64,000 nt of DNA from Mactra antiquata (taxonomy: Eukaryota): NCBI GenBank assembly GCA_047288015.1, contig CM103826.1:3917510-3981509 (forward strand). The letters run 5' to 3'. Under the pieces are notes generated by a model. It was not told where the DNA came from. It saw only the letters and a program-made list of their open reading frames with translations, and searched no databases. This document shows positions 1 to 55,199 of the stretch, one piece after another (the stretch's first letter is position 1; every line of letters starts with the position of its first letter). The position numbers were made by a program, and so were the translations under genes.

Positions 1-458
1 CGTTATACCTTTTAAAGTTCTGGTAAATGGTTGTTTTCCTTACATTGTAAAACAAAGAACTATTATAAGGGTAATGCGACGGCATTATCCTTAGCTGGTT
101 GCATCTGGACCAATGAGAGCTTGCCTGGCCATCACGTGATCATGATATGGTCTGGTGACCCACAGCAGCAGTAGTGAGAATAAATGAGTCTGAATTGAGA
201 ATGGGATTGTTTTTAGACAGTAGCGTCATTCAGAATAAGATCGCTGACTTCAAGCCAATGTTACCTCTAAGGCTCTCACTGATAGTAGGTCATGGGCTGG
301 AGCCCAGTTCACCGACCGCGACTCTCTATCAGAAAAAGTAGGAAGTTGATATCGAAGAATGGAGGTTTAGTACTGGTAGATTGCAAGAACGATTGTTTTG
401 TGAAATGTCCATCTTGTATGCCACTGTTGAATAGGGGCGTAAACACAAAATAACGGAA

Positions 459-735
459 GCCCGCCTGACTAGCTCAGTCAGTAATGCACAAGTCTACTGA
501 CTGAGGGGTCGTGGGTTCGATTCCCGGGCGGGGCGTACATTCGTGGAGCTTGGTCATGAAATCATTTCTACGGTCATTCTCCCTCCTATCACGGATCCTA
601 AATCATGTAGGGCAGCTGTCTGTCACTGACGGAAATATGCGCCTAGTAACTGGTGGGTAGCTAAATCCAGAGATTTAGCTTTTCAATGACCTATACATGT
701 ATAATGTGTTGCTTCGGCGTTAAACCCTACAAAAA
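459..735 (+). mobile_element. tRNA-derived SINE, family A (tRNA-like head, conserved core ttcgtggagcttggtcatgaaat..tttctacggccattctcc, tail ..ccagagatttagc..).
   Basis: Head gcccgcctgactagctcagtc...gggttcgattcccgggcgggg is followed by the shared body. Multiple copies in the window. Confidence 0.85.
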
Positions 736-6834: not shown

Positions 6835-8267
6835 GTAAGTATATAACTTTTAGAATAGGGTATGTAAGTCGCGTCATGTGACCTCCGAGATTTTACGATA
6901 TTTTCTAACTTCCGGGTACAAACACAAAATTAACGTCATGGTGCTTTCCATTAGATATTAGGCTAAATGCGTCGATGGACACGCAAAGCTTACAAGGAAG
7001 AGCGAGACATAGGTGGAGAGTGGCAGGGTGCTTCTATTTGTAACTGACGACACCAGAGTCATTTTAAGCCGATATAACTTTCTATTTTTAGAAACCAAAA
7101 TTTACCTACCTGCACAGATCAACCCATTTGTTCCTTTCCTTTGGATTAATTGGAAATCTAAACAAACTACAAGTCTGTGACCCACCAGTACGATGCATAC
7201 AGCCAAAAGCTTAACAGTAAACGATTGTACAACTGAGCGTTCGCGTTTACTTTCACTTTCGATACCCTATTTCGAATAAGAATAGAATAGTGTCGATTAA
7301 TATAATTTTGAGTGTTTCAAATAACGAAGGTTGTGAGTCTAGTACTGGCGCAATTCAGGAACGATGAACTTGCCGCCGCCTATGATTCTGACAATTGGAA
7401 AAGGTTTCGATAACCCCTGGGTTGGTAAGAAGTACAGAACAAAAACAAAGCAAATCCTTCAAAATAGGATGCCGAGTTTCAACTCCCGTATTCAAGGCCA
7501 ATGTACATGTAAAGTTTGGTTACATCAGACGATAATTATTTTTTTATTAAATTTATAATTAAAACTGACATTTCTATTGTGTACATGTTTTATTTCTATA
7601 CTTTAGCAGAATTGAAAATTAATAATAATTATAATTAATACTAATTATTCCCATCTGATATATCATCAATTTTAGACTTTCGGGCGAATTTCGCCCGGAA
7701 CGTCTTTAGTTACCACAAATTGGAAACTATCGACGAAAAAAAAATCCTGCCCAGTTTAACCTGCGTAGTGATATTCAAGTGCGGACAAGCACGTTCGTGT
7801 ACATGTGCCTCGCACCTGATACTTAATATAACCGTCCAATATTAATTGAAAACAAGAAATCGTTGTAAATCTAACCTGTTTTTCGCGATTAAAAACAATC
7901 AGAATCTGCGTTCTTCGTAAAACTTATCCTTTTCCCTTAATGCCTTTCGAAAAATAGTTCTCCGATTACGTAATTTATAGACCTATATACTGAACTCATG
8001 ACGTGAATGAGCCGACGACGCAAAAGAAATAGTGCACTCGATACATTGATAATTTGACGATAAATCCATCATATAGTTTTACAGGTGTCAAAAATGCAAT
8101 ACCAGGTTGCATAATAATGCTTTTTATTGGAATAAAATGCATAGTTCTGTTTATAATATAAGTTGAAATAATGTTTAATTATTTTAGAAACACAAAGTTG
8201 TAGGCATACAGGCAAAAAACGTAAATGATCGATGTTTGCCGAAATTGTTTTTAGTTCATAAATCGGG

Positions 8268-9005
8268 CACCAGTAAATGTGTATACCCCACCCTCCACCC
8301 ACAGAAAATAGTTTTACTTATTAATTCCTTAAATAACTATCGAATGGGTTTGGAAATTTGCATATTTTTTAAATTAAAGGGAGGTAATTCATTCAACTGA
8401 TGTGAACTGGGACATCATAGGCCGATTTATGATTCTTCTCAAGTGTGGTATGATTTATTAAATGAAACTGCATATAATTATCATGGCACAAATCCTGTCT
8501 CAGTGCGAACAACAAAATGTATTTTTCAACATTATTAATAGATTTTACTTAATATTGGATTATAATGGATTTTTCCAAAACTGATAATTTCTGAAGGATT
8601 TAAGCTCTAAAGGAACTCTAATTCGCCTTTGTAAATAAATTCATACAAACAGCTTGCACAAAAATTAAGAGAACTTAAGTTCGATCAATACTAATGCAGC
8701 TTTTAAAATTTCTTATGGTCAACCAAGAGAAATTCTAGAAGCTGTATTAATATTAATTATCATAAGGGAGGAAAGACAGGATAGAGCGCCATGATCGTGC
8801 GACCACATGCACGACTCATGCAGGTAGTTCGTCTTCTCACGAAGACAAACAAAAAACAAGAGCGTAAGCACAGCTTCCAGCAAAACACCAACAGCTCTGG
8901 TAACCATGCCTTATTTCCCTGATCTATGAAAAGGGATGGCGTGGTGTTTAGGAACGACCAGAGCCAGTTAAATGCTTTACCAAAAGAAGGCAAACGCTTG
9001 GCTAT
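8268..9005 (+). mobile_element. Dispersed repeat of about 740 bp, copy 1 (unclassified interspersed element).
   Basis: Ends align with 26727..27470: ..ccccaccctccacccaca..aattaaagggaggtaattca.. and ..agacaggatagagcgccatgatcgtgcgaccacatgcacgactcatgcag..ttcgtcttctcacgaagacaaac..ggcaaacgcttgg. Confidence 0.75.
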
Positions 9006-10235: not shown

Positions 10236-10496
10236 GTAAAGGTCATATCACGGCGGTCAGCCACCTAACTCATCGATCCTGGAAATACTAAATCTCTGGA
10301 TTTAGCTGTTAACCAGTTACTAGACGCATACTTCCGTCCGTGACTGACAACTGCCCTACATGATTTAGAATGGGAGAATGGTCGTAGAAATTTTTTCATG
10401 ACCAAGCCTCACAAAAGTATGCCCCGCCCGGGAATCGAACCAACGACCCCTCGGTCAGTAGACTTGTGCGCTTCAGACTGAGCTAGTCAGGCGGGC
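10236..10496 (-). mobile_element. SINE family A copy (minus orientation).
   Basis: Reverse complement of the family A consensus from tail ggtcatatcacggcggtcag to head ..gagctagtcaggcgggc. Confidence 0.85.
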
Positions 10497-10725: not shown

Positions 10726-11558
10726 ATGCTGTATATGTATATATTTAAATAACAAGAAATAGTCAAATTACGATTTTATGCGCAAGAAAGTCTTTCTGTG
10801 TTGTCAACACTTTGAGTTCTACATTGTTAACTCATGTCACGCGTATATACATTATACATTGAAAATAGATCATGTACTGTATACACTTATATTGTAATCT
10901 TTTTTCTGTTTTTTTTTTTTTTTAATTGGGTTTAACGTCTTATTAAACACATATTTAGGTCATATATACGACGGCCAGCTCTTCCTACTATAGGTTCCCT
11001 GGACACTTTTCCATCACCAGTACTAACTTACCCTATATATTGTAATCTACAACCAGAGTTAAATGAAGTTTATTCTTGTTGTAACAATAGGTAAATACTA
11101 CATGTATATATAAATGTACGAATATTTGCATTGTAAAAAACAAATAACTGACCATAACTTACGTTTTATAAGTTACTAAATAATAGTTGTTTCAGATATT
11201 ACAATACCTACATATGTGATGCTTTATTTATTCAATATTCACAGGCATAACTTCAAATATTTATGCTAGTGACAGGCGGAACTGAGAGAGACTAACTTTC
11301 TAAGAATATTATTATTTTGTTACGTTGATAAAATGTGGAATTTTTTTTAAAAAAAACTTAGCCTGGAACCCCATGATAATCATTTCTGGATCAGCCCCTT
11401 ATGTGGAATTCATTTTTTTGCCAATGAGTATGCTGTATTTTTTGATATTCTCGAAATTTAATAAAGTAAATAGTGTTTTGAATATCATCAATGCAGTGGT
11501 AATTTACGTAAGATTGGGCAGGACTTATTAAATGGACACCACTACACTTATGTTTCAG

Positions 11559-11830
11559 GCACGATGTATTTCGCAATAAATTACATAGCTAATTACGTGA
11601 TACCCGGAGACTGGATAAACAAACCACAAGAAGTCACGTGTACCACTAGTGGTAAGAGAGAATCAAGTGGTATGGAATCTGATTTAGCAGAAGGGCGCGT
11701 CGGTAATCAAGCTATCAGACGCGAAAAGAGAGGGGTAACTGACATTGGATTGAATGCCACTTGTGATGCATCCAATACGATTAAGATCGCCTTGAATTTA
11801 GCTGACTACAGTAATATTAAATCTGAAAAG
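11559..11830 (+). CDS. Gene 1 exon H.
   Basis: Acceptor tgtttcag|gcacg and donor gaaaag|gtaggt. Open frame GTMYFAINYIANYVIPGDWINKPQEVTCTTSGKRESSG...IKSEK. Phase 1 in, phase 0 out. The 4.7 kb intron upstream carries repeats. Confidence 0.6.
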
Positions 11831-12700
11831 GTAGGTCTGCTATCAGATTGAATAAACCAATAAGACTAAATGTTAAAATAATCAGAAAAAATGCCAAAAA
11901 TAATGTACCCTTTAGTACCTCCGTCGTCGTATACTCACATTTCGTCTCCTAGAAACTAGGCTGCCACGTACATGCTATTAGAAAATCTTTGATTGCTGTT
12001 TCAGAGTAACATTTTGTTTTGTTACCACCAAACAAGATCAATTTTGACAAGATGTGTGTGTATTTTATATAAAAAAGTTTTGACTAGGACGCCAATAGAA
12101 TACTTTCAGTGGGTGGGGTTTTTTATGGTCAGTCGGGAAACAGCAATCAAACCTAACTTCAACCCAGTCTGTATTGTAATTATAGGATATTATATTTAAC
12201 AATATTGAAATTTTAAACCTAAAAATGCAGAGAAAAGTGTTGAATGCATTGATACTTACAAGCAACTTTTTCACCAGAAAAACAAACCTGGGTCACTAAG
12301 AAAAGACAAATGGGAGAAAATGGTGATGGGATATCATTCTTTTTTACTCTGATTAGTAATGGATTTTTGTATCATTTTTGGGAAACACAGCTGGCTGAAG
12401 TACAAATTGAAGTTTGAAAAAGAGCCAAAATTGCATTTTTGCCAATATTGCTTCTCTCCATTGTTGCCATTTGGGTAAAAGGGCCATTTCTGAAAAACGA
12501 TGGTCCTTGGAACACTCTGGTCAAGTTTCGTTTCTAACACACTGTTATTGATAAAATTAGAACATTGTCCATATACATGTAGCCTACCGCATTAAGCTTG
12601 AAAAAAGTGATTTTTGACTCAGTCCAAATCAATTACAACTGTGTATTAAGTCATGATACCAGTCAAATTTATCGTCAATGGACTATACATTTGTTGACAG

Positions 12701-12828: not shown

Positions 12829-13198
12829 GTAAGTATTTTAATCATTGAAGCACGCATAGAACAAGAAAAGTTTGTCATGGAGTCATCAAAAATCGGTCTT
12901 ACCAGACCACCTCGGTCATGTCGGCTTTTTCCGTAAAAGGTTAGAATGAAAATGTTGTAGAAATTTGGTGACTATTGCAAATCGGTCTTAATTGAATATA
13001 GAGCATTAGATGACTTAGATGAATCACCATTACATGATACAATCAATGCTGTGCAATTGGGGCGACCAAATGGTACCAAGTCTAGGAAACAAACACACGT
13101 TTTCTCGAAATGGTGCTTAAGAATACGAAAAAATGTGTAAAAGAGACCAATAGTTACTAGCTTCTTTAAAGTTAAATCGTATCGTAAAAATGTTCTTA

Positions 13199-13393
13199 GC
13201 CCGCCGGCTAGATCAGTCGGTAGCGCACAAGTCTACTGATCGAGGGGTCGTGGGTTCGATCCCCGGGCGGGGCATACTTTCGTGGAGCTTGGTCATGAAA
13301 TAGTTTCTACGGCCATTCTCCTTCCTACCACTGATTCTAAATCATGTAGGGCAGTTGTCAGTCACTGACGGAAGTATGCGCCCAGTAACTGGT
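13199..13393 (+). mobile_element. SINE family A copy (3' truncated).
   Basis: Head gcccgccggctagatcagtcggtagcgcacaagtctactgatcgaggggtcgtgggttcgatccccgggcgggg plus core. Confidence 0.85.
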
Positions 13394-13921
13394 CATGTAT
13401 TATAGTGATTGGTTGCCTTTAAGTCTAATCAGATGCCAAATTACGGCTAAGACAGTGAAATAGATGACAAATATGTAAAAAATTGGCTGCAAGTGGTTCG
13501 ATGAGTTTTCCTTACGCCCCTAAACAGATGCTTGTTTTCGTTGCACAAACTGATTACAGTTGTCATCTGGAATAAAAATTTAGTCTTGTATTGAAAATGT
13601 CGTTATGTCCGATGAAGTTAAAGTCCGTATAAATGAGAGCATAGTAATGATTATGCCTCATGATGTAAATAATAGAAAGGTTTTATACTCGCATGACATT
13701 GTCGATTCATTTTGATAGAGAAATTAATGCGCGTGTGACCTATCCGAATGATGGTGCGGAAAAATAAAATAACTGTTATAACCGTATAACTGCAGTACAA
13801 TATTTAAGCATAAACAACGTATGGTTCGAACCTATGCGCATTAATACATTATTGAAAAGTAAGATGAGCCGTGCCTGTTAAAAGTAGTCCGTATATTGTA
13901 TGTATGTTTTGACAATTACAG

Positions 13922-14175
13922 ATTTGCCATAAATGTAATAGGACACATTGTACTACCATTTCAAAATTGGATCAGTCAACCACTTGAAATAACATGTGGA
14001 ATTGGTCAAGTAGTACGCTATGGTAGTTCAGGACTAGAAATTGACAACGAAAACGTAGGAACGACTACGACGAAAAAAACAACATCTACCACAACACAGG
14101 CAGTAACATCACAGCCTCCAGAGACACAAGGAACGACCTCTCATCAACCTATTACTCAACAACCTACAACCACTG
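13922..14175 (+). CDS. Gene 1 exon J, ending in a second Thr-rich linker.
   Basis: Acceptor attacag|attt and donor cactg|gttggc. Translation KFAINVIGHIVLPFQNWISQPLEITCGIGQVVRYGSSGLEIDNENVGTTTTKKTTSTTTQAVTSQPPETQGTTSHQPITQQPTTTG. Phase 2 in, phase 1 out. Confidence 0.6.
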
Positions 14176-15174
14176 GTTGGCATTTCTTTTTTACCATTGT
14201 TATTAATAGAAAAAATCGAAGTCATTTAAACAAACAACTTATATTTAACATCATCCACACACCTGCTTATAGCACTAAGGGAGACAATATGATGTTCGTA
14301 AACTTTGAACGATATCTCTTGTTTGTGCATGATACCTGACAAACCGCCATTTTGTGTTCTACTAAAAGCAATATTCATATTAATATAATAATTAAATATG
14401 TCATATTAAATTCACATACCGATTTTATAATTATCAGGATAAACAAATCAAACATGTGACAAAACAGTTCGGATACACTGGTTTCCGGATTTCTCAAGTT
14501 ATTTTGCGTTCGAAATGGGACCGAGAAATAAGCTCAGAATTCATGGGATTTCGGATTTCTCAGGTAGTCCTGTATTATTTTTTGTTTTGTTTCATTCTTC
14601 AAGGCACAAGTAACACTGGACCCATACCTCCCGACAGAAAGTTCATTTTGGAACTTAATGAACAAGGGACCTCGTTACCACAACAGACAAGAAAGTACGC
14701 ATTGTATTTTAGCCAGGCAGTGACGCCACAAATACGCAAATCTGACAACAAAGTAGTCTTCGTTCCAAAATCTGGAGGTCTTTTCAATGGAATCATGCAA
14801 GTGGCGTATCTAGGTAAAATATTATTGAATATATTAACGGAAGCCTTTAATGCGGTTTATGGTGTTATTATTCTTGATGAAGGGAGAAATACCAAGTATG
14901 CGCTTTGTGCACCGCCTAAAAAGTAGTTCCCATCGCAAGAAGTGGGCGTGGCCAAACAATAATGATGTTGGACTGATAATTATTTGATAGTCAGCTTCGC
15001 GATGCATTGAATGTCATCCAACTTCCAAGCCCATCTCGTTGATTCCTTGAACAAGAAACTTTATCCTAAATGCTTAGTACTGAGTGACCAGGAAGCTCAC
15101 TCAATAGTAATTGGTTAGGTTGGCATAATTGTTTCACAATATTTGTATAGACTAAACTTAAATTTAACAGTCAG

Positions 15175-15395: not shown

Positions 15396-15481
15396 CATAT
15401 ATAATATTTCTGATCAGATTGCCTATACATGTATGTACAACGTTTTTAGATGAATTAATTTAATATGAATCTTTTTACAAG

Positions 15482-15678
15482 GTGCTGGGCGCCGTGGAAG
15501 TCATGAAAACGACACTGTATTTGATGAACATTTTGGGGTATACTCGAGTACACCGAAGACTTCGTTCTGTGCCAGTGAGTCAACGGGGAAGGCGTATCTT
15601 ACCTTCAAATGGAATCCAAACTACCAAGATGCCCAGTCAGCTACCTCTAGGTTACTAATGTTAACAATGCCACATCAT
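15482..15678 (+). CDS. Gene 1 exon K.
   Basis: Acceptor tttttacaag|gtgc and donor catcat|gtaaga. Translation GAGRRGSHENDTVFDEHFGVYSSTPKTSFCASESTGKAYLTFKWNPNYQDAQSATSRLLMLTMPHH. This donor is the only one that hands phase 0 to exon L. Confidence 0.55.
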
Positions 15679-15710
15679 GTAAGATTTCAACAACTACCTT
15701 TATAAATTAT

Positions 15711-15888
15711 TACAGTAAAATTTCGCTATAAAGACCACCTTGGTTATATCAAAATCAAGCAACTTTGACAATTTTTAAGTCCCAAATGCTTAATTTGGGA
15801 ATGAACAGATCACTATAATAAGACCATTTTGCTATTAAGACCATCGATTTTGATGGTCCTAATAAAACCAGTGGATTTTATATAAAAG
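15711..15888. mobile_element. MITE (Tc1/mariner-like, TA-flanked; TIR CAGTAAAGTTCCGCTATAAAGACC) copy 1, just downstream of gene 1 exon K. The right TIR is degenerate.
   Basis: Shares about 180 bp with copies at 23115..23275 and 55025..55195. Confidence 0.7.
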
Positions 15889-17000: not shown

Positions 17001-17057
17001 GTATGTATGGGTTATACAATATGAAAAACCACAAACATATGTCTGTCACGAATTTTT

Positions 17058-17359
17058 TGTTGAGTTTAATGCCGTAGCAACACATTGTATAGGTCATATC
17101 ACGGCGGCCAGTCAACCTACTCATCGTTCCTGGAAAGGCTTAATCTCTGGATTTAGCTGTTCACCAGTTACTAAGCGCATACTTCCGTCAGTGACTGACA
17201 ACTGTCCTACATGATTTAGAATCAGTCGTAGGAGGGAAAATGGTCGTAGAAAATTATTTCATGACCAAGCTCCACGAAAGTATGCCCCGCCCGGGAATTG
17301 AACCCACGATCCCTCGATAAGTAGATTCGTGCGCGACCGACTGAGCTAGCCGGGCGGGC
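17058..17359 (-). mobile_element. SINE family A copy (minus), immediately after gene 1 exon M.
   Basis: Full-length reverse complement of family A including the tail ..gcaacacattgtataggtcatatcacggcggccag. Confidence 0.85.
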
Positions 17360-18333
17360 TGCCACGAATATTCGAGTATTCGAGTAAACCTACAGACATG
17401 CAGTTTCAGTGATGTAAATGTAGGCCTAACTTACTGCATGTAATACTCTGTGATTTAAACAACTAGCAGCTAAGATTATGTTTTCTGTCTCCTCTGAGGT
17501 CTATAATTCTACATTGACAGTTCAGAGATTTCTCACATACATAACGTTATACATCATAGCTTCAAGAACTATGATGAAGGTTTGCCTGAGCTGTAATAGC
17601 AAAATACACGTATAAATACTTCGCAAACTTTTATGAAATATATAATTCTAATTATCAAATTAATATCAGCAAAGAGAATTCTCCCTCCGCCCCTGACATT
17701 ACGTCCTACGAGCTCGTGGATAATGCATAGGGCCGAGAATAAATGGACGTACGTGGTTTCGACTAAATTTTGATCTCTCATCTGACGCCGGGTTCGTATT
17801 TCATGTTTGCAGGTTAACTGGTAAATGTATAGATCTTTAAAATAAGGCTTAATTTCTGCGCAATATATCAGCTTATTAAAAACATACTTGTCCATGTTCA
17901 TTAAAAATTACTTGACCTTTGTCAAACTAGAGAAATTGTCAATAACATTCGAGTGAGAGACTCATGGCGTTTTATATTGACACCTACGCTAAAACAAGTG
18001 TCAGTCACAAATATGTGTTGATCGAACTTCAGTCTGACGAAGATATGTGTACAATATTGAGGCAAAAAATCGTATTGTACTGTATCTAAAACTCGAACTA
18101 TTGCCAATTGTTCAGCCAATTTATTCACACGCAGTGTATTCTGAGAAATCCGAACGTCTTCAGACCGAACGAAATGTTTGGTTTTTACAGGTTTCTAGAT
18201 TTCTCGGGTTTTCTTTCCCCAAGATCGGCCTGAGAAAATCGATCGTAATTTAAAGGATTCCGGATTTGTCAGTGTTCGTATTTCTCAGGTTACGCTGTAT
18301 ATATATTAACTAATGGTCTACTCTGTTTTTAAG

Positions 18334-18525
18334 ATGTATTGGATGACATGTGGAAGTTTAAATACGATACTGTATGGGGTGGTTTATTCTTGAAGGCAAC
18401 ACGTGGTGAGGTACAGTTTGGTGCAGGCTTTGGGTTTCCATTTTACAATGATCATCATTTTCATCTTGGATATTTTATATATGCTGCTGGTTATTATGTT
18501 AAACATTATCCTGATTGGGGATCAG
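18334..18525 (+). CDS. Gene 1 exon N: GH81 signature exon (YNDHHFH motif).
   Basis: Acceptor tttttaag|atgt and donor atcag|gtaaga. Translation DVLDDMWKFKYDTVWGGLFLKATRGEVQFGAGFGFPFYNDHHFHLGYFIYAAGYYVKHYPDWGS. FYNDHHFH(Y/L)GYxIYAAA is a hallmark of GH81 endo-beta-1,3-glucanases. Confidence 0.85.
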
Positions 18526-18699
18526 GTAAGATGCCTTAAACTGTATATGAGCCGTTTTAGGTTAAAAGGTACTTTAACGTCATTTACGATAAATGACGGA
18601 AAGACGTCCCGAACGTCACCGATTCATCATAATGCGGAAGTATTTACATGGTTTTTGTATGAGTGGATAGTAAAGGAACTTCTGAGTGATGTTGCACAT

Positions 18700-19020
18700 A
18701 ATGGTATGTATATGAGTGCTTAAACATGCGATTTTGTATGAGTGCATGATCACAGGAATTTTTATACATACGAGTACCTGAGTAATCAATCACATAATTT
18801 ATGTATGAGTGGTTGATCGCATGATTATGTGACAGTGGTTTAAAGCATGATTTTTGTATGAGTGGTTGAAGACATGATTTTATATGACTGGTTGATGACA
18901 CGATTTTTGTATGAGTGGTTGATAACACGATTTTTGTATGAGTGGTTGATGACATGAGTTTTTAAAGAGTGGTTGGTCAAGTGATTTTGTGTGGGTAGTT
19001 GATAACATGAATTATTTCGT
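18700..19020. repeat. Intronic satellite, about 27-31 bp unit (gatttttgtatgagtggttgatgacac), in gene 1 intron N/O.
   Basis: At least 9 degenerate tandem units visible. Confidence 0.85.
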
Positions 19021-19029
19021 TCATGAGTA

Positions 19030-19271
19030 GTTTCTGCTACAGAACAGAACATAGACATAAACTACATCTATGAACTAGAGATTGAATAGTCTTTCTGTTA
19101 CAGAACATAGACATAAACTCTATCTATGGGCTAGAGATTTCATACTCTTTATGTTACAGAACATAGACACAAACTCTATCTATGGGCTAGATATTTAATA
19201 CTCTTTATGTTACAGAACATAGACACAAACTCTATCTATGGGCTAGATATTTAATACTCTTTATGTTACAG
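19030..19271. repeat. 56-bp minisatellite in about 4 units, each carrying the ttacag|aacatagac acceptor of exon O.
   Basis: Acceptor g at 19159, 19215 and 19271 (period 56), plus a degenerate earlier unit. Confidence 0.9.
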
Positions 19272-19429
19272 AACATAGACACAAACTCTATCTATGGGCT
19301 AGAGATGTAGCCAACCCAACACATACAGATCCATATTTTCCTGTGGTAAGACATATGGATATGTATACAGGGTTCTCATGGGCTTCTGGTATTGTACCAG
19401 GATCAAGACAAGAAGAATCAGCATCTGAG
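19272..19429 (+). CDS. Gene 1 exon O: GH81 catalytic-region exon.
   Basis: Acceptor ttacag|aacat is the last of four tandemly repeated copies and the only one downstream of the in-frame stop at 19244..19246. Donor ctgag|gtaagt. Translation EHRHKLYLWARDVANPTHTDPYFPVVRHMDMYTGFSWASGIVPGSRQEESASE. It matches the GH81 FPxxRHFD..GHSWAxG...E(S/T)(S/T)SE catalytic region. Confidence 0.8.
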
Positions 19430-19784
19430 GTAAGTAAACTCTTTTATGAACCTGTATTTTGTGTAGCTTTTTTTTGGTTTTGCTTATTGAACTTGCTAGC
19501 AGTTTATCTAGTCTGTTCTGTCCGATTCGTCTAACCAGCTATCTTGGACCATTCCCACTATAGTACTCGCTTTCCCGACCATATGGAGCTGACAAAATTT
19601 TCCTTTACGGCGGAAAATCGACAATTGGATTTTACCATTGAAATGCAGTTAAGATGCCGGATTAACTTTTTTTGTTAAATTGTATATTTATGAAGACCCA
19701 TTCAGCATTTTAGTGAAAATTGCTGATGACGACGGCAGGATGAGACATAACTCCATATGCAATGTATTAATTCAATTATCCGAG

Positions 19785-20035: not shown

Positions 20036-20065
20036 AGGAGTATTTTTTCATATATAGATCAAATC

Positions 20066-20372
20066 ACGCCCGGCTAGCTCAGTCGGTAGCGCACAAGTCT
20101 ACTGATCGAGGGGTCGTGGGTTCGATTCCCGGGCGGGTCATACTTTCGTGGATCTTGGTCATGAAATAATTTCTACGGCCATTCTCCCTCCTACCACTGA
20201 TTCTAAATCATGTAGGGCAGTTGTCAGTCACTGACGGAAGTATGCGCCTAGTAACTGGTTAACAGCTAAATCCAGAGATTTAGCTTTTCCAGGAACCGTG
20301 AGTAGGTTGACTGACCGCCGTGATATGACTTATACAATGTGTTGCTACAGCGTTAAGCCAACAACAACAATA
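20066..20372 (+). mobile_element. SINE family A copy (full length, with tail ..gtgagtaggttgactgaccgccgtgatatgact..).
   Basis: Best-preserved copy; the consensus was derived from it. Confidence 0.9.
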
Positions 20373-20504: not shown

Positions 20505-20822
20505 AGTCTAAATTGTTATCATGGAGTTGCCGCCCTTGGTGAAGCATTTAATGACAAGAAGTTACAACATGTTGGACAAACTATGTTAGCCATGGAACTT
20601 ACTTCCGTAAGAGAGTATTGGCAAGTTCGAGCACATAATAGAGATCATTTCCCACCACTTATACAAGATACAGGTGTATGTGGACAGATAACTGAGGATA
20701 GCTTTTATGTGTACACATTAAATTGGCCATGTGAACCTAACGTATTTCCAATGAGACATGCATGCCTGGTAGGAATACAAGTCATTCCTATAACAGCTGT
20801 ATCAAAGTATTGGGTTGATCAG
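20505..20822 (+). CDS. Gene 1 exon P (GH81 alpha/alpha barrel region).
   Basis: Acceptor ctactttatag|agtc, which is the first ag after the in-frame stop at 20502..20504. Donor gatcag|gtaaca. 106 codons open: SLNCYHGVAALGEAFNDKKLQHVGQTMLAMELTSVREYWQV...VSKYWVDQ. Confidence 0.7.
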
Positions 20823-21484: not shown

Positions 21485-21592
21485 GAATGGGCAGCTTCCA
21501 TCAAGCATTCTTGTGAATCGGCAGTACATTTCAATAGAGAAAGTGAATATTCAATAGCTGACAAACAACAAAGGGATCGCAAGCTTGCCGCG
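21485..21592 (+). CDS. Gene 1 exon Q.
   Basis: Acceptor aaattgcag|gaatgg and donor gccgcg|gtaagt. Translation EWAASIKHSCESAVHFNRESEYSIADKQQRDRKLAA. Phase 0 in and out. Confidence 0.5.
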
Positions 21593-22213: not shown

Positions 22214-22516
22214 CTAGCCCGCCCAGTTAGCTCAGTCGGTGGAGCGTCTTCCTTTGAATCCAGGGGTTTTGTGTTTGAGTCCCAGGCAATACCCACGTAC
22301 TTTCGTGAAATTTGGTCATGAAATACCTACTACGGCCATTCTCTCTCCTACCACTGTATCGTGTAGGGCAGTTGCAATCCACTGGCGAATGTATGTGCTT
22401 AGTTCTGGTTAAAAGCTTAGGTCTAGTTCTAAGCCTCTCCAAGGACAGTGAGTAGGTTGGCTGGCGATCGTGATGTGACTAAAACTGACGGAAAAGCTGC
22501 GTAATGTACCATAAAG
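22214..22516 (+). mobile_element. SINE family C copy in the gene 1 R/S intron.
   Basis: Head cccgcccagttagctcagtcggtggagcgtcttcc..., core and family C tail. Confidence 0.8.
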
Positions 22517-22896: not shown

Positions 22897-23049
22897 GGAT
22901 GGGCAGCATTTTGTCTAGCAGCATTATCACCATTAGATGCCAGTCATAAGACAGAAGCTGCTAATTTCTTACAGGACAAGAATGCTCGTGATCTAGTTGG
23001 AGGTACTGGGGCTGCTAGTACATTACTGTTTATATATGCTAGTACATAG
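22897..23049 (+). CDS. Gene 1 candidate terminal exon S (stop TAG at 23047..23049).
   Basis: Acceptor cattgtag|ggatgg lies immediately after a small palindromic MITE. 51 codons open: GWAAFCLAALSPLDASHKTEAANFLQDKNARDLVGGTGAASTLLFIYAST*. Phase 0 is compatible with exon R (short form). Confidence 0.4.
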   Translation, partial: GWAAFCLAALSPLDASHKTEAANFLQDKNARDLVGGTGAASTLLFIYAST

Positions 23050-23114
23050 AACACTGATGTGAGGACTTCGAAGTGAAACTAAGATAGAACTTCTGTGTTT
23101 GAAATACAATCATA

Positions 23115-23275
23115 TACAGTAAAGTTCCGCTATAAAGACCACATTGGTTATTGCAAATTCAAGCAATTTTTGAGTCCTAAATGCTTAATTTAAGAAGAAA
23201 AAGGTCCCTATATTAAGACCATTTTGCTATAAAGACCGTCGATTTTGATGGTGCTACTAGCGGAACTCTACTGTA
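23115..23275. mobile_element. MITE (TA|CAGTAAAG...CTCTACTG|TA) copy 2.
   Basis: Terminal inverted repeats tacagtaaagttccgctataaagacca / tggtgctactagcggaactctactgta; flanked by TA. Confidence 0.8.
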
Positions 23276-24695
23276 TATGTATTCCAAGTTCAACTACATG
23301 TATATACAATTACAATAATTTATATAATCTACATGTGTTTAAATGTCATATACCCTCGTTTCGGAGTCATAATTAGCAAAAATGGAGTTTGATCTATCAA
23401 TCTTGTCTGTATTATATGATTTTAGCATTTGGTTTTGAGAAATTATAAACAAAAAAATAAACATTAAACTATGATTTGGTGTTGCTTGACATCTATGCTA
23501 CCTACATTTTTCCTACCTAGTTCTATATTATAAATGGGATATGCCATTACTGAATGTGTGTTAATACAAATATACATGTATTCATGAAATTCATCTGCTC
23601 ATGGTCATTATACATGTACATTTATACCTTACAGTAGTACATGTAATGGCAATGTACATGTATATAATGAATGTGCATGTGTATGGAAAGTTTCGGAAAA
23701 GTAATTTTCTGGAGATGACAAACAGAAATTGAATATTGCCTTACTCTTGAAAAAAAAACAGCATGAGAGTTTACTGCAGTTTTTAGTTAATACACATCAT
23801 TTCAGTTCGACACTGAAACAAGTTCTTACACATTAGATTAATCACTTCTGAGTTCACTTAATCCTAGTCCCCCAGTACTGAGCAACCAGGATAAAGTATC
23901 TTGCTCAATTAAACAACGAAATGTTTTATGGGATTCGAACCAGTGTAGAGATGGTTGTTCAAAGATTACCAGTCCAGTGTTGTAACAGCCCAGCCACCCC
24001 TCGTGAAAACCATAAAAAACAAAACTGCCACTGTTGATAATAAATGGTTTGAACTTCATTACTCATAACCAAAAAAACTCTGACAGGCAATACCTGAACA
24101 TTTCTGCCAAGTTTCATCAACTTTGGCCAATGGGGTTTAGAAGAAGTGTAAAGACATTGTATTGACGGACGCACACACGCACCACGGACAACGGACCATC
24201 ACGATAGCTCAATTTGAGCACTTTGTGTTCAGGTGAGCTAAAAAAACCAATGAAATGGCCTAGCATTTTTAGGGAGTACAAGTATGCACGGTGTCATAAA
24301 GGTGACATGTGTGGATCTTATTATTATTGCACACTAAAGAAATAATAGAATCTTATTATTGTATTCCCACGAGATAATTATTACGTTCCAGTTAGATAAG
24401 GATTGTGTCCCCCACAAAATTTTATTGCGTTCCCACAAGACAAGGACTTGCTCTAACGAGGTTAGCTCAGGCAACCAAATTACCTCAATCTCAATCAAAA
24501 CGTACTGGGGACACGAGACGTGACGTCCGACTCAAACCCGCATCTGCTGAAGGTGATTGTCAAAATCAAATATGTAGATAGACAAAGAATGTCCTTGTCT
24601 CAAGGAATAGAAACAGAATTCATCAGCAGTGTATGCCAGATAAATTTTGTGCGATGTCGACGACCGACCCAGTGATCTAAAGAGCTAGTGTTTTT

Positions 24696-26490: not shown

Positions 26491-26726
26491 TATTTTATAT
26501 GGTTCCTGAACATTTGATGGGCCCCTCTATTGTAAAGCCCACTATTTGAGAAAATCGTGGACAGCGTGTGGGGTCATGGGATCGAATCTTTATGATCTTG
26601 TAGGAACCTCTTGGACTGTTGATAATCGTAAATACATGTACACACATGGTTGACCTTTATTTTACTGAAGTAAACGTATATGACCGAAGTTGGCCGAATT
26701 ATTTTTACATTGCTTAACTCAGACCA

Positions 26727-27470
26727 CAATTCATGTGTGTACCCCACCCTCCACCCACAAAGAATAGTTTTTCTTAATAATTTCTTAAATTACTATCCTA
26801 CTGGTTTTAAAATTTGAATATTTTTGAAAATTAAAGGGAGGTAATTCACTCAACAGACGTGGACTCAGTGCACATTAACTTTTTTCAGATTTCAGTACTT
26901 TTGATATTGATAAGAAAAAAAACTGCATTATTTCAACGGCACAATTCCTGTCTTAATAACCCTTTATCAAGATCGTTTTAAACAATCTATTTTTATGGAT
27001 TTTGGACTCTGCATAGTTTAACAGCATTTCGACTTGCCCTAATGAATACAATAAAAAATGTATCAAATGATAATCAGGGCAGGTTAAATTGTGTTGGACT
27101 TAAATGATTTTTTTTCTAGAATTTCCAAAGTTGTTGAAAAATCAAAAACATTGAATCAAATAAGTTTCTTTCTTTTTAATAAGAAACCATATACTATAAC
27201 TAATATTGATAATCAATTTGGAGGGGGGGGTAAGACAGGATAGAGCGCCATGATCGTGCGACCACATGCACGACTCATGCAGTGTGTTCGTCTCCTCACG
27301 AAGACAAACACAAAAAACAACAGTGTAAGCTCAACTCCCAGCAAAACATCAACAGCTCTGGTAACCATGCCGTATTTCCCTTCTCTATCATGAAAAAGGA
27401 TGGCGTGGTGTTTGAGAACGACCAGAGCCGATTAAATGCTTCGCCAAGAGAAGGCAAACGCTTGGAAATT
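26727..27470 (+). mobile_element. Dispersed repeat of about 740 bp, copy 2.
   Basis: See copy 1. The middle section has diverged. Confidence 0.75.
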
Positions 27471-36239: not shown

Positions 36240-36570
36240 GTTTAATTTGCCACGAAAATGCCGTGATATTATTTAGTAAATTAGTAATGATGAGTTATTA
36301 CTAGTTAATTAGGAATTATGTATTATTTTTAGTCAATTAGTAATCGTGTATTATTTTTTGTTAATTAGTAATTATTTTAATTAATTAGTAATCGTGTATT
36401 ATTTTTTGTTAATTAGTAATTATTTTAATTAATTAGTAATCGTGTATTATTTTTTGTTAATTAGTATAATCATTTATCATTTCTAGTTAATTAGTAATTA
36501 TGTATTATTTTTAATTAATTAGTAGTCATGTATTATTTTAGTTGATTAGTGATTATGTATCATTTATTGT
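36240..36570. repeat. AT-rich tandem repeat (ttaattagtaatcgtgtattattttttg plus ttaattagtaattatttta) in gene 2 intron 6.
   Basis: About 49-bp compound unit repeated about 6 times. Confidence 0.85.
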
Positions 36571-36577
36571 TTTGAAG

Positions 36578-37315: not shown

Positions 37316-37396
37316 TTTTAAAAAATAAGTTTATTTGGCATCTACTCTGGCAATAAGAATTCCCGTATTAACATGTGGCATGTTTTAAAAAAGACA

Positions 37397-37675
37397 CCTG
37401 CCTGGCTAGCTCAGTCGTTGCGCGCAAATCTACTGATCGAGGGGTCATGGGTTCGATCCCCAGGTGGGGCATACTTTCGTGGAGCTTGGTCATGAAATTA
37501 TTTCTACAGCCATTCTCCCTCCTACCACTGATTCTAAATCATGTAGGGCAGTTGTCAGTCACTGACGGACGTATGCGCTTAGTAACTGGTTAACAGCTAA
37601 TCCAGAAATTTAGCCTTTCCAGGAACGGTGAGTAGGTTGACTGACCTATACAATGTGTTACTACGGCGTTAAACC
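37397..37675 (+). mobile_element. SINE family A copy in gene 2 intron 7, ending about 75 bp before the catalytic exon 8.
   Basis: Head cctgcctggctagctcagtcgttgcgcgcaaatctactgatcgaggggtcatgggttcgatcccc plus core and tail. Confidence 0.85.
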
Positions 37676-42780: not shown

Positions 42781-44166
42781 CTATCAAGATATATATAATT
42801 ACACTGCTCTAGTAAATCGATATAGTCAGAGATTTAGCTTTATAAACATAATTTTGTTTGTCATTTGAAATTACAAATATTTTGTTTTTATTTTCACTAT
42901 TCATTTTGTCTAATCAAACTTGGTTTCGTAGATGTTCAGGATGAAAAAAGTATTTAAAAAAATGAAAAATATTTTAACTAGAATATATTCTACCTAATGC
43001 CAAAACAAAAGACTAAAATTAACAAGTAAACATTATTTCTGCAAGTACACGATGCTGAAAGAGTATTATTTAAAATAATTCTTTGCGCAAAAAATTAAAG
43101 ACATTTTGAAGGTATACATGCAAAAAGCCAAAGGAAAACATTATTGGAAAAAAAATAGAAAATATCATTATAGGAAGAGGAAAAGCATCAATCATATTTG
43201 CATCAAATGACAAACATTATCATGCATTTTTTTTTTACTTTCCATACTTTCCACTCCACATAAATATATTGTTATTAAATCAACAGAGATCCTATGTAGT
43301 TATACTTCTTAGGGCAGTATTTGATATAATTTGCCTCTATGTCTCTACATAGTACACGGCCACCCAAAAGTTCCTTCATAGTACAATTAACTTATGTTCA
43401 TTATATATTATAATTATTATCTACGCAATGACAACAGAATATCATGGATATAATTATTCATTAATAAGTTGCAGCAATAATTATCTGTCAGATTCTAAAG
43501 CCATGATCAATGTTTCTTAATGCTACAACCTAGATTTTAAAGATCAAATTCCTCCAAAATTTTCATTTTTTTGTAACTAAATTTATTTGATAGAGTTTTA
43601 TTAGCTGAGAAAAATGGTGCAATTTTTATCCACATCAGATATCAAACAATGAAGTTATGGAAGATTTTGTGTCACAAAAATGAATATTCATGATGACATC
43701 GATGATGTCATCGATGATCTTATTAATATGCATAACTGATTTTTCTACTACCACATGCATTTAAAACATATTTTCTTGTTGGTTTTCAACAGTAATCATT
43801 TTCAGCTTCATATTCAAACAGAATGTTACTTAATTTTTTAGCATATATGCATTTTGCAAGTGTTCTAAAATTTTATTAAATAAGTGGGCATGTCCTTATT
43901 TCCTTATATGGAAAACACTTAAATTGGTTATATGTTGGTTATTCATTGTCCGATTTTCATTCTGTTTTCTTTAAAGTGAATGTCTCAAAAATTCCTTTTA
44001 AACACAATTGACTCCCAAATCAGTGAATTTGACCTTTAAGTTATTTTTGAAATCTCATATCTTAAGGAAAATCTACTGATTTCCGAAGTAAAACATGGAA
44101 GCGTTTTAACATAAACTGAAATTACATCTTTCACTGAGTTTTGTGAGTCTTTTTCTTTTGGTGGTT

Positions 44167-44290
44167 GGAAGGAGAATGGCTGTAGAAATTGTTACATGAC
44201 CAAGCTCCACGAAAGTATGCCCCGCCCAGGAATTGAACCTACTACCCCTTGATCAGTAGACTTGTGCGTTACTGAGCTAGCTAGGCGAGC
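44167..44290 (-). mobile_element. SINE family A fragment (head plus core, minus).
   Basis: Reverse complement of the head and core: ..catgaccaagctccacgaaagtatgccccgcccaggaattgaacc... Confidence 0.75.
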
Positions 44291-46999
44291 TGTGAAAGTC
44301 TGTTTGGTACAATTTAAATTGAGAATGTGTGAAGGAACTTTTGGATGACAGGGTATCTCTAATATTAAATAATCTAGCTAAACAAAATCATAAGCAAACT
44401 AAATTACAGTAAAATCTTTCCTTAAGACCACTACAAAGATGAAACAACTGAAATATGTTTCCATAAACTGTCATGTCGAACATGTATCATCTTTTTGTTT
44501 AATCAATGTACATTTCAGTTGATTTTCAGCCAGACTAAAGGATGTTCAAGCTATTGTTTGTGTACTATAGATGTTGTAAATTATAAAGAAGTTAATACAG
44601 TCAAATGAGTTAAAAATCACACCAAATACAAATACAGAAAATCTGAATACATATCAAATGTTAGTACATGCTTAACTCTTTAATCTTTTCTACGCCTTTT
44701 GACACTTTATACCCCCCCTCCCAATTTGGCCAAGTTGTATTCCTGTCACACTAATGGCGATGAAACAAGAGCAATTTCAAATTGCCCTACCATGATAAGC
44801 TGGAAAAAGGCTCTTTTCTGTCCAAGTGAAAAATGGGAAAGGGTTAAAAAGGACTAAGTATTTTCAGTGAAAAATCTACCTCATGTAACCCTTTAAAAAT
44901 TCCATAATATAAGAAGCTCATTTTAGATTATTTCACTCCCAATTAGACTGGTAATACATGTTATACTTTCCTAACTAAACACTTAAGGCCATGGAAGATA
45001 CAAGGGTAAAAGTTCAAAATTTTGAAAATTCTGAAATATTCATATCTTATGGAATTCATACATCATTAGTTCAGTACACAAATATAAGATATTTCAACTC
45101 TCAAAATCTTGAATTCAAAAATAATCCTGAAAAAAAAAACATCCATGAATCTATATTGTGGTCTTACATTTTGTAATATTGAAAATTTTACTGTAATTTA
45201 CTACTGCTATACAAGATGTTACCAATATCAAACCATACAGAAAAGTAAATATTAAGACAATAAACTGTCTTCGTAGCTTTATGTCTCTGACTTCGCTGGT
45301 CTTCTTTTAGAAAACCATATTTATTTTTATTTTAAATATTTATTTTTTGTTTTAGACAACGCTATGATGTACTGACTTGTATTTGGAAACATTTTAAAAC
45401 TAGACATAACTAAACACTGACTTTCAAAAGCCTCAGGGTCATACTAAAGTATCTTCCTTTTACATAAGTACCATCACTTTGCATAAAATCCTCAAAAAAC
45501 TTAACCTTCTGTTCAAAACAGCACAAAACCATGGTATCACCTATTTCTTCAGACACTGTTTTGCAGTTGCAGTTTTGAATGGTAGCCTTAAAATATATTT
45601 TTTAGTTCTGACTCAGTGTTCAACTAAAGCACAATTATCACAGTGCTGTACCGAGTCCTTTTGTTTTTTTGTTTTTAGCACAAGATAAAACTCTAGTATT
45701 TTGTACATAAGTTCAGCTACAATAATTCTACCCACCCTGGGCCCTCATAACAATTTAAAACATATATACACAAGTCAATTCAATCATAGCATTGTCCCCA
45801 GAGCAGCGCAATTTATCTCAAAATTCAACAATCCATTACATCAATCATACAATCTAAGGTTTTTTTTAATGAACAATTTTGTCTGTCAAATTTAACCTGA
45901 TACTCTATCTTTATTAATAATAATGTCACAGTGTCATGATACATACAAATATAAGAATTTTAAACTGTTTATAACACTTTTATTTTATTATTTAAGATAG
46001 CCAGGTCACCTAACCAGCTTCCAGGCGAATTTTATTTTACAAGTACTCACTTACCCTTCAACAAGCAGCCAACAACTCCCTATACGGAGAAAAATTGATA
46101 TATATTCCAAGACTAATTTTCAAGTATTGGCATAGCCAGTCGAAACTGTCAAATTTTTCCTTCCATACTGGTTGAAAAGAGCTATTTATATCATTACTTT
46201 AGATCTCACAGCAATATTTGTAATTCATTGACTGCTACCATGAAAATGACCTTGACTTCTTAAAAAGGTTGTCAAATTAATTGCACCACGGTGTGTAATT
46301 AGTATAAGGTATATGTATCAGGTTAAATTTGTCAGGCTGTACATGAATACAAAATGTGTCATGTTAATCAAACAACAAGCTCAAATGGTACCGGGTATTT
46401 AAAGCAAAAAAGCAGAAAACAAAAAAAATATATACAGAATACACTAAATCAAACAATTACATACAAGTGGATAAGATTCAATAAAAAATCAAAATATATG
46501 TCTACTTTTAAGAATTTTAAAGCAACTAAAATATAGCAAAAAAAATGACATAATGTAAAAATCAAGAATCAGGCTTGTCTGTCTGAGCTATGGCATACAT
46601 CAACTCAATATAAACCAAAGTTTCCAATTTCCTCACAATAAACCACAAAATTAGTACATAAAATAAGCTTAATATTTAATGCTAAAATTGCATATAAATA
46701 AAATACATATATCGAACCAAAATACATAGTAGTTTCTCTTTTTATTTAACGTTTCAACTAAAAAGCCTTCATCAAACAAGGATTTAATCCATTATCAAAC
46801 AATATATTCATTACACAGAATGTTATTCATATTAATACACAAAATTAAGAAGTAAATACAGTCATTAATTTTCCGTATTTAAATGAAGCCTAAAGCCTAA
46901 AATACACAATAATAACAATAATATGGAATTCTTTGGACCCTTTTTTGGCCCGTTTTTCATGAGATTACATCTCCACTCGCACAATGTCTTCCTGTATGT

Positions 47000-55024: not shown

Positions 55025-55195
55025 TACAGTAAAGTTCAGCTATAAAGACCACCTTGGTTATTGCAAAATCATGCAATTTTTGACAATTTTTAAGCCCCAA
55101 AAGCTTAATTTAAGAAGAAAATGGTCCCTATATCAAGACCATTTTGCTATTAAGACCATCGATTTTGATGGTCCTACTAGCGGAACTCTACTGTA
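55025..55195. mobile_element. MITE (TA|CAGTAAAG...CTCTACTG|TA) copy 3, upstream of the SLC22 gene.
   Basis: Perfect TIRs tacagtaaagttcagctataaagacca / tggtcctactagcggaactctactgta. Confidence 0.8.
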
Positions 55196-55199
55196 TATA

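What the first reader, a model, noticed from the sequence alone, without database searches (positions are those of the whole stretch)
19030..19429. A 56-bp minisatellite has quadruplicated the splice acceptor of the GH81 catalytic-region exon
The sequence ttacag|aacatagacacaaactctatctatgggctaga recurs about 4 times in tandem (acceptor g at 19159, 19215 and 19271, plus a degenerate earlier copy). Only the last copy is downstream of the in-frame stop at 19244..19246 and yields the open frame EHRHKLYLWARDVANPTHTDPYFPVVRHMDMYTGFSWASG...QEESASE. Upstream copies are cryptic acceptors, so any splice into one meets the in-frame stop at 19244..19246 (repeat period 56 is not a multiple of 3). This is an expansion-prone structure at the most functionally critical exon, with obvious potential for mis-splicing, NMD-regulated isoforms or copy-number polymorphism.
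Basis: seen in the sequence. Interest (0 to 1): 0.55.

Follow-up and report, generated by a model that had tools for sequence, protein, structure and literature searches.

The report
Minisatellite repeating a glucanase gene's splice acceptor
A 56-base tandem repeat in a probable bivalve beta-glucanase (GH81) gene has copied the intron-exon junction of the catalytic exon five times, so only the last copy gives a working protein. This is a real but not new kind of structure, and the data available here cannot show whether it affects splicing.

Summary
Tandem Repeats Finder reports a 56-bp array at 19044-19306 with 4.7 copies and 94% matches. It carries five acceptor AGs, not four, ending at 19047, 19103, 19159, 19215 and 19271.

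The gene is a GH81 endo-beta-1,3-glucanase on the + strand. The upstream exon ends at 18525 in phase 1, and exon 19272-19429 encodes both catalytic glutamates.

Only the last acceptor keeps the frame. Homologues align without a gap across that junction. Three related bivalve-type loci have the same intron position and phase, a single acceptor and no repeat, so the array is specific to this lineage.

The stops fall at 19071, 19196, 19252 and 19308, not at 19244.

Acceptors 19159, 19215 and 19271 have near-identical branch-site, pyrimidine-tract and AG modules. The two oldest copies are degraded.

I found no transcript or second assembly of this species, so acceptor usage, NMD and copy-number polymorphism remain untested.

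Close precedents exist. Human F7 IVS7 and other minisatellites span donor boundaries, and CBS 844ins68 duplicates a 3' splice site. I rate it a new member of a known kind, of modest interest.

The parts
18334..18525 (+). GH81 exon B (…FYNDHHFHLGY…HYPDWGS). It ends with one base of a split codon (phase 1), with donor cag|gtaaga.
   Evidence: Pfam PF17652 E=5.6e-44; the D of NDHH aligns to D475 of 4k35.
18526..19271 (+). Intron (746 nt) as defined by the productive acceptor. It consists largely of two minisatellites.
   Evidence: The same intron position and phase occur in L001, L002 (Tegillarca granosa) and L004.
18653..19010 (+). Degenerate 27-bp minisatellite (unit ACATGATTTTTGTATGAGTGGTTGATG). 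It runs up to the start of the 56-bp array and is confined to this intron.
   Evidence: TRF 18792-19010, 8.2 copies, 75% matches. Eight matches to the core against 0.09 expected, all within 18653-19003.
19044..19306 (+). 56-bp minisatellite, 4.7 copies. Each unit holds about 21 nt of intron 3' end (branch-site-like motif, pyrimidine tract, AG) plus the first 35 nt of the exon.
19046..19047 (+). Pseudo-acceptor 1 (oldest copy). A second AG lies 5 nt upstream. Its use gives a stop at 19071.
19102..19103 (+). Pseudo-acceptor 2. An AG lies 14 nt upstream and there is no yTnAy motif in the AG-free zone. Its use adds 168 nt in frame but stops at 19196.
19158..19159 (+). Pseudo-acceptor 3, an intact module (ttcAt 17 nt upstream, 23 nt free of AG). 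Its use gives a stop at 19252.
19214..19215 (+). Pseudo-acceptor 4. Its sequence is identical to the productive acceptor from -25 to at least +12. Its use gives a stop at 19308.
19270..19271 (+). Productive acceptor (ttacag|aacat), the only one that keeps the reading frame.
   Evidence: Homologues align without a gap across DWGS|EHRHKLYLWARD. The orthologous acceptors are single.
19272..19429 (+). GH81 exon C (158 nt): (E)HRHKLYLWARDVANPTHTDPYFPVVRHMDMYTGFSWASGIVPGSRQEESASE, with donor gag|gtaagt. It carries both catalytic Glu equivalents.
19244..19246 (+). TAG in the genomic frame of exon C. It limits the ORF upstream but is not the stop met by mis-spliced transcripts.
20505..20822 (+). GH81 exon D (SLNCYHGVAALG…SKYWVDQ). 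Exons E (21485-21592) and F (22897-23046) follow, and all are open.

Best explanation
This is a lineage-specific minisatellite. It arose by repeated tandem duplication (slippage or unequal exchange) of a 56-bp segment spanning the 3' intron-exon boundary of the GH81 glucanase gene. Each unit carries a branch-site-like motif, a pyrimidine tract, the AG and the first 35 nt of the exon.

The duplications added material only on the intron side. The gene stays intact provided the spliceosome uses the 3'-most, exon-proximal acceptor at 19271. The four upstream copies are intronised pseudo-acceptors. They drift freely, and any use of them yields a transcript with a premature stop that should be removed by NMD.

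I consider it most likely that the last acceptor is used predominantly, as in published boundary-spanning repeats, with at most minor unproductive splicing at 19215 and 19159.

Shown here: the array, the gene model, the frame consequences and the absence of the array in relatives. Inferred: the origin mechanism, the choice of acceptor and the NMD outcome.
For: Array and copy structure:
- TRF gives 4.7 copies at 94% matches. Shuffles give no matches to the core.
- Copies share nested substitutions. Copies 1 and 2 share T at unit position 15, and copies 3 and 4 share T at 37 and A at 42. This implies several successive duplication events rather than one.

Gene model:
- The product matches GH81 (PF17652, E=5.6e-44) and solved GH81 structures (4k35, E=8e-20).
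- Exon B ends in phase 1, and only acceptor 19271 gives an open frame.
- Five homologues have exactly 12 residues between DW(xx) and (V/I)xNP, as in the window.

Lineage specificity:
- L001, T. granosa L002 and L004 have the intron at the same codon position and phase, with one acceptor and no tandem repeat.

Relaxed constraint on upstream copies:
- Copies 3 and 4 carry GAT>TAT, which would change the Asp of the ARD motif to Tyr. That Asp is conserved in all five homologues that cover this position.
- The acceptor modules of the two oldest copies have gained nearby AGs or lost the yTnAy motif.

The rest of the gene is open: exons A-F.

Precedents:
- Minisatellites spanning donor boundaries in F7, IFI6 (6-16), CBS IVS13, LMNB2 and PDGF use only, or mainly, the exon-proximal site (PMC1557585).
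- The duplicated 3' splice site in CBS 844ins68 uses the distal site and gives mostly wild-type mRNA (PMC1802585; PMC1334203).
Against: - No RNA evidence exists for this species.
- Acceptors 19215 and 19271 are identical in the flanking sequence examined, and 19159 nearly so. No local signal explains a preference for the last one.
- In human data, equal-strength alternative 3' splice sites more than 20 nt apart show an upstream preference. That preference is only reduced, not clearly reversed, under exon definition (PMC9225289).
- Copies 3 and 4 are identical, so the exact copy number could be off by one if the assembly came from short reads.
- I checked only the C-terminal six exons of the gene for intactness.
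Confidence: 0.72

Rival explanations
1. The upstream acceptors are used at a substantial level. The array would then act as a splicing sink: a hypomorphic or copy-number-dependent allele, or an unproductive-splicing (AS-NMD) control of glucanase output.
For: - Three acceptors have near-identical modules, each with its own yTnAy motif 17 nt upstream and a 23-25 nt AG-free zone.
- All upstream choices give stops 121-358 nt before the next exon junction.
- Human equal-strength 3' splice-site pairs tend to favour the upstream site (PMC9225289).
- CBS 844ins68 needs G runs between the two sites to select the distal one (PMC1802585). That suggests distal choice is not automatic.
Against: - Known boundary-spanning repeats mostly use the exon-proximal site.
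- The gene's checked exons are all open, and the last copy keeps the invariant Asp that copies 3 and 4 have lost. This indicates continued selection on the product.
- Molluscan GH81 is a 0-1 copy gene expressed in hepatopancreas (PMC7560691), so a strong loss of output would probably be selected against.
- There is no evidence of regulation.
Confidence: 0.25
2. The array, or its copy number, is an assembly artefact: an expanded or collapsed repeat.
For: Copies 3 and 4 are identical over 56/56. About 163 nt separate the nearest distinguishing bases on either side, more than a 150-nt read can span.
Against: - Copies 1, 2 and 5 are each distinguishable by substitutions in a nested pattern typical of an evolving array.
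- The array totals only 263 bp, which long reads span easily.
- The neighbouring 27-bp array shows that the intron is genuinely repeat-rich.
- At most the count of the identical unit is uncertain. The duplication of the acceptor itself is not.
Confidence: 0.08
3. The exon starts at a different AG inside the last copy (exon start 19305 or 19311, both in frame). The repeated AG would then not be the real acceptor.
For: AGs at 19303-19304 and 19309-19310 would preserve the frame (my own frame arithmetic on the sequence).
Against: - Either choice would delete 11-13 residues (EHRHKLYLWAR…) that all homologues possess, including the conserved L-x-R-D motif.
- The orthologous acceptors in three relatives align with 19271.
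- The sequence upstream of those AGs is purine-rich and lacks a pyrimidine tract.
Confidence: 0.03

Closest known systems
Human F7 intron 7 37-bp VNTR, and the similar minisatellites of IFI6 (6-16), CBS IVS13, LMNB2 and PDGF (PMC1557585)
   Same: One monomer of a minisatellite spans an exon-intron boundary, so the authentic splice site is reiterated several times in identical form inside the intron. In F7 only the exon-proximal site is normally used, and the array is polymorphic (5-9 copies).
   Different: All of those reiterate the donor (5') site, with the first monomer on the boundary. Here the last monomer spans the acceptor (3') boundary, so each unit must carry a branch site, a pyrimidine tract and an AG. 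The 5'-to-3' scanning model proposed for F7 would not explain selection of the last acceptor. Usage and polymorphism are unknown here.
Human CBS 844ins68 (a 68-bp duplication of the intron 7/exon 8 boundary)
   Same: It is a tandem duplication of intron 3' end plus exon start that creates identical 3' splice sites. The reading frame is rescued because the distal, exon-proximal site is chosen, giving mostly wild-type mRNA (PMC1802585, PMC1334203).
   Different: CBS has one extra copy, whereas here there are four extra copies of differing age. In CBS, G runs between the sites drive distal choice. Here each unit has only one GGG triplet, which is also present downstream of the last acceptor, so it cannot by itself discriminate.
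Intron gain or sliding by tandem duplication of exon sequence carrying a proto-splice site (e.g. PMC2891723, PMC4974935)
   Same: Tandem duplication turns former exon sequence into intron, and the gene survives because splicing removes the extra copy.
   Different: No new intron or new position is created here. The intron position and phase are ancestral, and the existing intron is simply lengthened by 224 nt.
NAGNAG and other short-distance tandem acceptors
   Same: Several acceptor AGs compete for one donor.
   Different: Those lie 3-9 nt apart, share one branch site and are chosen at the second catalytic step. Here the sites are 56 nt apart, each with its own upstream module, and the outcomes are frameshifts or stops rather than one-residue variants.

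Membership tests
Minisatellite / VNTR | Head-to-tail tandem copies of a 10-100 bp unit | tested here: met
   Period 56, 4.7 copies, 94% matches, no indels.
Minisatellite / VNTR | Copy number varies among individuals | not testable with these tools
   No second assembly or reads of the species were found.
Boundary-spanning minisatellite that reiterates a splice site (F7 IVS7 type) | One monomer spans an exon-intron boundary, so the splice-site sequence recurs in the intron | tested here: met
   The last monomer spans the intron/exon C boundary at 19271|19272, and four further AG modules lie upstream.
Boundary-spanning minisatellite that reiterates a splice site (F7 IVS7 type) | The reiterated site is the donor (5') site | tested here: not met
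   The reiterated site is the acceptor. The unit contains no plausible donor, only tat|gttaca.
Boundary-spanning minisatellite that reiterates a splice site (F7 IVS7 type) | Only or mainly the exon-proximal site is used | not testable with these tools
   No transcript data. The reading frame requires the exon-proximal site.
CBS 844ins68-type duplicated 3' splice site | Tandem duplication containing the intron 3' end plus the exon 5' end, giving identical 3' splice sites | tested here: met
   The examined flanks of 19215 and 19271 (-25 to +12) are identical, and 19159 differs only upstream of -20.
CBS 844ins68-type duplicated 3' splice site | G runs between the sites that direct use of the distal site | tested here: inconclusive
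   Each of units 2-5 has one GGG (tatGGGcta), but the same triplet also follows the last acceptor, and there is no GGGG run.
Alternative splicing coupled to NMD | The alternative site introduces a stop more than about 50-55 nt upstream of a downstream exon junction | tested here: met
   The stops at 19071, 19196, 19252 and 19308 lie 358, 233, 177 and 121 nt before the 19429 junction.
Alternative splicing coupled to NMD | The alternative site is actually used, and the isoform is stabilised when NMD is blocked | not testable with these tools
   No RNA data.
GH81 endo-beta-1,3-glucanase gene | Match to the GH81 C-terminal catalytic domain above the curated cutoff | tested here: met
   PF17652: 151.3 bits against a cutoff of 25.6. 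PDB 4k35: E=7.9e-20.
GH81 endo-beta-1,3-glucanase gene | Catalytic Asp and two Glu (D475, E553, E557 of RmLam81A; that these are the catalytic residues is from memory) | tested here: met
   By my count of the alignment, NDHH aligns to chain position 475 and E-S-A-S-E to positions 553 and 557 of 4k35.
GH81 endo-beta-1,3-glucanase gene | GH81 N-terminal domain present upstream | tested here: inconclusive
   One upstream ORF (15469-15702) scores 23.9 bits against PF03639, whose cutoff is 25.6. I did not build the N-terminal exons into a model.

The most novel reading that the evidence does not exclude
The array is a functional, copy-number-variable dial on glucanase expression. Each added unit supplies another fully competent 3' splice site and diverts a fraction of transcripts into NMD. 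Individuals with different repeat numbers would then differ in digestive laminarinase output. It would also be the first natural multi-copy series of identical 3' splice sites, allowing a test of how the spliceosome chooses among them.
Probability: 0.12. Interest if true: 0.5.

Novelty: new member of a known kind. Interest (0 to 1): 0.3.

Why it matters
Identical splice sites in tandem are natural experiments on how the spliceosome chooses a site. The published minisatellite examples I found reiterate donor sites, and the one acceptor-side example I found, CBS 844ins68, has only two copies.

An array with three near-identical and two decayed acceptor modules would test whether exon-proximal choice also holds for 3' splice sites. 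Here the modules sit in front of an exon carrying both catalytic glutamates, in a gene family present at 0-1 copies in the surveyed mollusc genomes. If the array is polymorphic, it could show whether repeat number tunes expression.

For annotation, it warns that gene predictors may pick the wrong copy and produce a frameshifted or truncated GH81 model.

Tried and rejected
1. Same-species transcripts or a second assembly. None of these gave anything, so usage and polymorphism could not be tested.
   - The protein search found nothing above 86% identity.
   - An exact 38-mer scan of metagenome contigs gave 0 hits.
   - Exact look-ups of three ORF products from the window were not on record.

2. 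RNA structure that might hide the upstream acceptors. The fold of 19010-19440 has z=-2.39. It shows the same small hairpin (CATAGA…TCTATG) after every acceptor, including the last, so it does not discriminate.

3. Local signals that might distinguish the last acceptor.
   - Pyrimidine content, yTnAy motifs and AG-free zones are the same for 19159, 19215 and 19271. Only 19047 and 19103 are weaker.
   - The single GGG per unit is also not discriminating.

4. Transposon or dispersed-repeat origin. Both the 56-bp and the 27-bp units occur only in this intron.

5. Alternative in-frame AGs at 19303-19304 and 19309-19310. I rejected them because they delete conserved residues.

6. Upstream units as mini-exons. 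There is no usable donor in the unit.

7. Minus-strand ORFs across the 27-bp array. They are periodic repeat translations and are not evidence of a gene.

8. Possible pseudogenisation suggested by an apparently missing penultimate exon. I rejected this. Exon E is at 21485-21592, with good splice sites and bivalve-type homology.

Full report
OBSERVATION

Tandem Repeats Finder reports one array at 19044-19306 with period 56, 4.7 copies, 94% matches, no indels and score 442. The 32-nt exon-side core occurs four times with at most one mismatch, none is found in shuffled sequence, and it occurs nowhere else in the 64 kb.

Printed in register, the array has five units starting at 19044, 19100, 19156, 19212 and 19268. 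Units 3 and 4 are identical. Unit 2 differs from them at 3 of 56 positions, and unit 1 at 9 of 56. Each unit begins with acag|aacat.

There are thus five acceptor AGs, ending at 19047, 19103, 19159, 19215 and 19271, plus an extra AG at 19041-19042.

GENE MODEL

The window carries a single GH81 gene on the + strand. Joined exon translations match Pfam PF17652 (GH81 C-terminal domain) at E=5.6e-44. They also match the solved Rhizomucor miehei GH81 structure 4k35 at E=7.9e-20.

- **Exon B** (18334-18525) ends ...gat tgg gga tca g|gtaaga, in phase 1.
- **Exon C** (19272-19429), joined at acceptor 19271, reads ...DWGS-EHRHKLYLWARDVANPTHTDPYFPVVRHMDMYTGFSWASGIVPGSRQEESASE, followed by the donor gag|gtaagt.
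- **Exons D** (20505-20822), **E** (21485-21592) and **F** (22897-23046) follow in matching phases and are open.

In the alignment to 4k35, the D of YNDHH falls on chain position 475. The two Glu of E-S-A-S-E fall on positions 553 and 557. From memory, these are the catalytic Asp and Glu residues of that enzyme.

The best protein matches are bivalve: Tegillarca granosa at 67-68%, with unnamed ENA and Logan contigs up to 86% over part of the query. The window is probably from a bivalve mollusc, but I did not identify the species.

WHICH ACCEPTOR IS THE REAL ONE

Five homologues that cover the junction (P0001-P0004, P0013) align without a gap. Each has exactly 12 residues between DW(xx) and (V/I)xNP, as in the window.

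Three related genomic loci have the intron at the same codon position and in the same phase, with one acceptor and no tandem repeat:
- L001, an ENA contig, with acceptor …atag|ca aac aaa cac.
- L002, T. granosa, with acceptor …ttcag|cg cat aag cac.
- L004, a Logan contig, with acceptor …tccag|ac cac aag gac.

These rest. The intron is therefore ancestral and the array is specific to the window's lineage.

Two other in-frame AGs inside the last unit (exon starts at 19305 and 19311) would delete 11-13 conserved residues, so I rejected them.

CONSEQUENCES OF USING THE UPSTREAM COPIES

I joined exon B to each acceptor in turn.

| Acceptor | Extra nt | First stop | Distance from stop to 19429 junction |
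|---|---|---|---|
| 19215 | 56 | 19308 | 121 nt |
| 19159 | 112 | 19252 | 177 nt |
| 19103 | 168 (in frame) | 19196 | 233 nt |
| 19047 | 224 | 19071 | 358 nt |

Every stop would qualify as premature under the usual 50-55 nt rule, which is established for vertebrates. Its application to a mollusc is my inference.

The stated reason is not. The TAG at 19244-19246 lies in the genomic frame of exon C. It would be in frame only for the 19103 acceptor, which already stops earlier at 19196.

ANATOMY OF THE UNITS

Each unit comprises about 21 nt of intron 3' end plus the first 35 nt of the exon.

- Acceptors 19159, 19215 and 19271 each have a yTnAy motif (ttcAt or ttaAt) 17 nt upstream. Each also has 11-12 pyrimidines among the 17 positions -20 to -4 and an AG-free stretch of 23-25 nt.
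- The examined flanks of 19215 and 19271 (-25 to +12) are identical.
- The two oldest modules are degraded. Acceptor 19103 has an AG 14 nt upstream and no yTnAy motif. Acceptor 19047 has an AG 5 nt upstream.
- Units 3 and 4 carry GAT>TAT. In an exon this would replace the Asp of the ARD motif, conserved in all five homologues covering it, with Tyr. The last copy keeps GAT.
- Units 1 and 2 share a T at position 15. Units 3 and 4 share two other changes.

This nested pattern implies several successive duplications and free drift of the upstream copies, with selection acting only on the last one.

The rest of the intron is a degenerate 27-bp minisatellite (18653-19010) that abuts the array and is also confined to this intron. 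The region therefore seems generally prone to slippage or unequal exchange.

MECHANISM

I conclude that this is a boundary-spanning minisatellite. It lengthened an ancestral intron by 224 nt and left four pseudo-acceptors in front of the real one. The gene remains functional only through use of the exon-proximal, 3'-most acceptor.

No local sequence feature distinguishes that acceptor from its two nearest copies. A fold of the region shows the same small hairpin after every acceptor. The choice must therefore depend on context, such as proximity across the exon to the 19430 donor or to exonic enhancers.

The literature points both ways.
- **For exon-proximal use:** minisatellites spanning donor boundaries (F7 IVS7, LMNB2, PDGF, and mostly IFI6 and CBS IVS13) use the exon-proximal site (PMC1557585). 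The duplicated 3' splice site of CBS 844ins68 uses the distal site and gives mostly wild-type mRNA (PMC1802585; PMC1334203).
- **For upstream use:** human equal-strength alternative 3' splice sites show an upstream preference that is only reduced under exon definition (PMC9225289).

I put about 0.7 on predominant use of 19271 with minor leakage. I put about 0.25 on substantial unproductive splicing.

WHAT COULD NOT BE DONE

No transcript, read set or second assembly of this species was reachable. Acceptor usage, NMD and copy-number polymorphism are therefore untested.

An assembly artefact is unlikely to explain the duplication itself, because the copies are distinguishable by substitutions. 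The number of identical units (3 and 4) could still be off by one.

COMPARISON AND NOVELTY

The kind of structure is known. It mirrors, on the acceptor side, the F7-type donor minisatellites, and it is a multi-copy version of CBS 844ins68. It is not a NAGNAG-type tandem acceptor and not an intron gain.

I classify it as a new member of a known kind. It is a useful natural model if material from the species is available, but it would not surprise a splicing specialist.

Noticed in passing
window 18653-19010: A second, degenerate 27-bp minisatellite (unit ACATGATTTTTGTATGAGTGGTTGATG, about 8-13 copies) fills the middle of the same intron and abuts the 56-bp array. Its last partial unit (ttcatgagtagtttctgctacag) forms the pyrimidine tract of the first acceptor.
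   Followed up: partly
window 458-684, 10236-10496, 13198-13393, 17057-17360, 20064-20364, 37394-37646, 44161-44295 (and, more diverged, 22298-22480): A dispersed repeat of about 200-300 bp, with copies 83-96% identical in both orientations, probably a SINE-like element. Several copies sit in introns of the GH81 gene, one ending about 140 bp before exon D. ARAGORN finds no tRNA gene in the window.
   Followed up: partly
window 11474-11848 and 13863-14336: Two upstream + strand ORFs share a similar segment (FAINYIANYVIPGDWINKPQEVTC… and FAINVIGHIVLPFQNWISQPLEITC…). The second continues into a Thr-rich linker (TTTTKKTTSTTTQAVTSQPPETQGTT…). These may be duplicated N-terminal modules or linker exons of the same glucanase gene. 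Neither matched Pfam.
   Followed up: no
window 21485-21592: The penultimate GH81 exon (EWAASIKHSCESAVHFNRESEYSIADKQQRDRKLAA) lacks the NP(W/F)SAPGAD motif seen in the non-bivalve and cDNA-type homologues. It does resemble the bivalve-type exon in L003, L004 and L006 (EWAVSIKHVCEMAIHP…). This is a lineage-variable segment of the enzyme.
   Followed up: partly
window 8217-9001 vs 26672-27465; 15702-15861 vs 23104-23278 vs 55021-55198: Further dispersed repeat families, 80-89% identical, presumably transposon fragments.
   Followed up: no
window 36267-36571 and 2020-2170: Other minisatellites in the window: AT-rich 28/48/58-bp units at 36267-36571, and 15/45-bp units at 2020-2170. The window has roughly ten tandem arrays in 64 kb. 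The 56-bp array scores highest and is the only one I found overlapping a GH81 coding exon.
   Followed up: no
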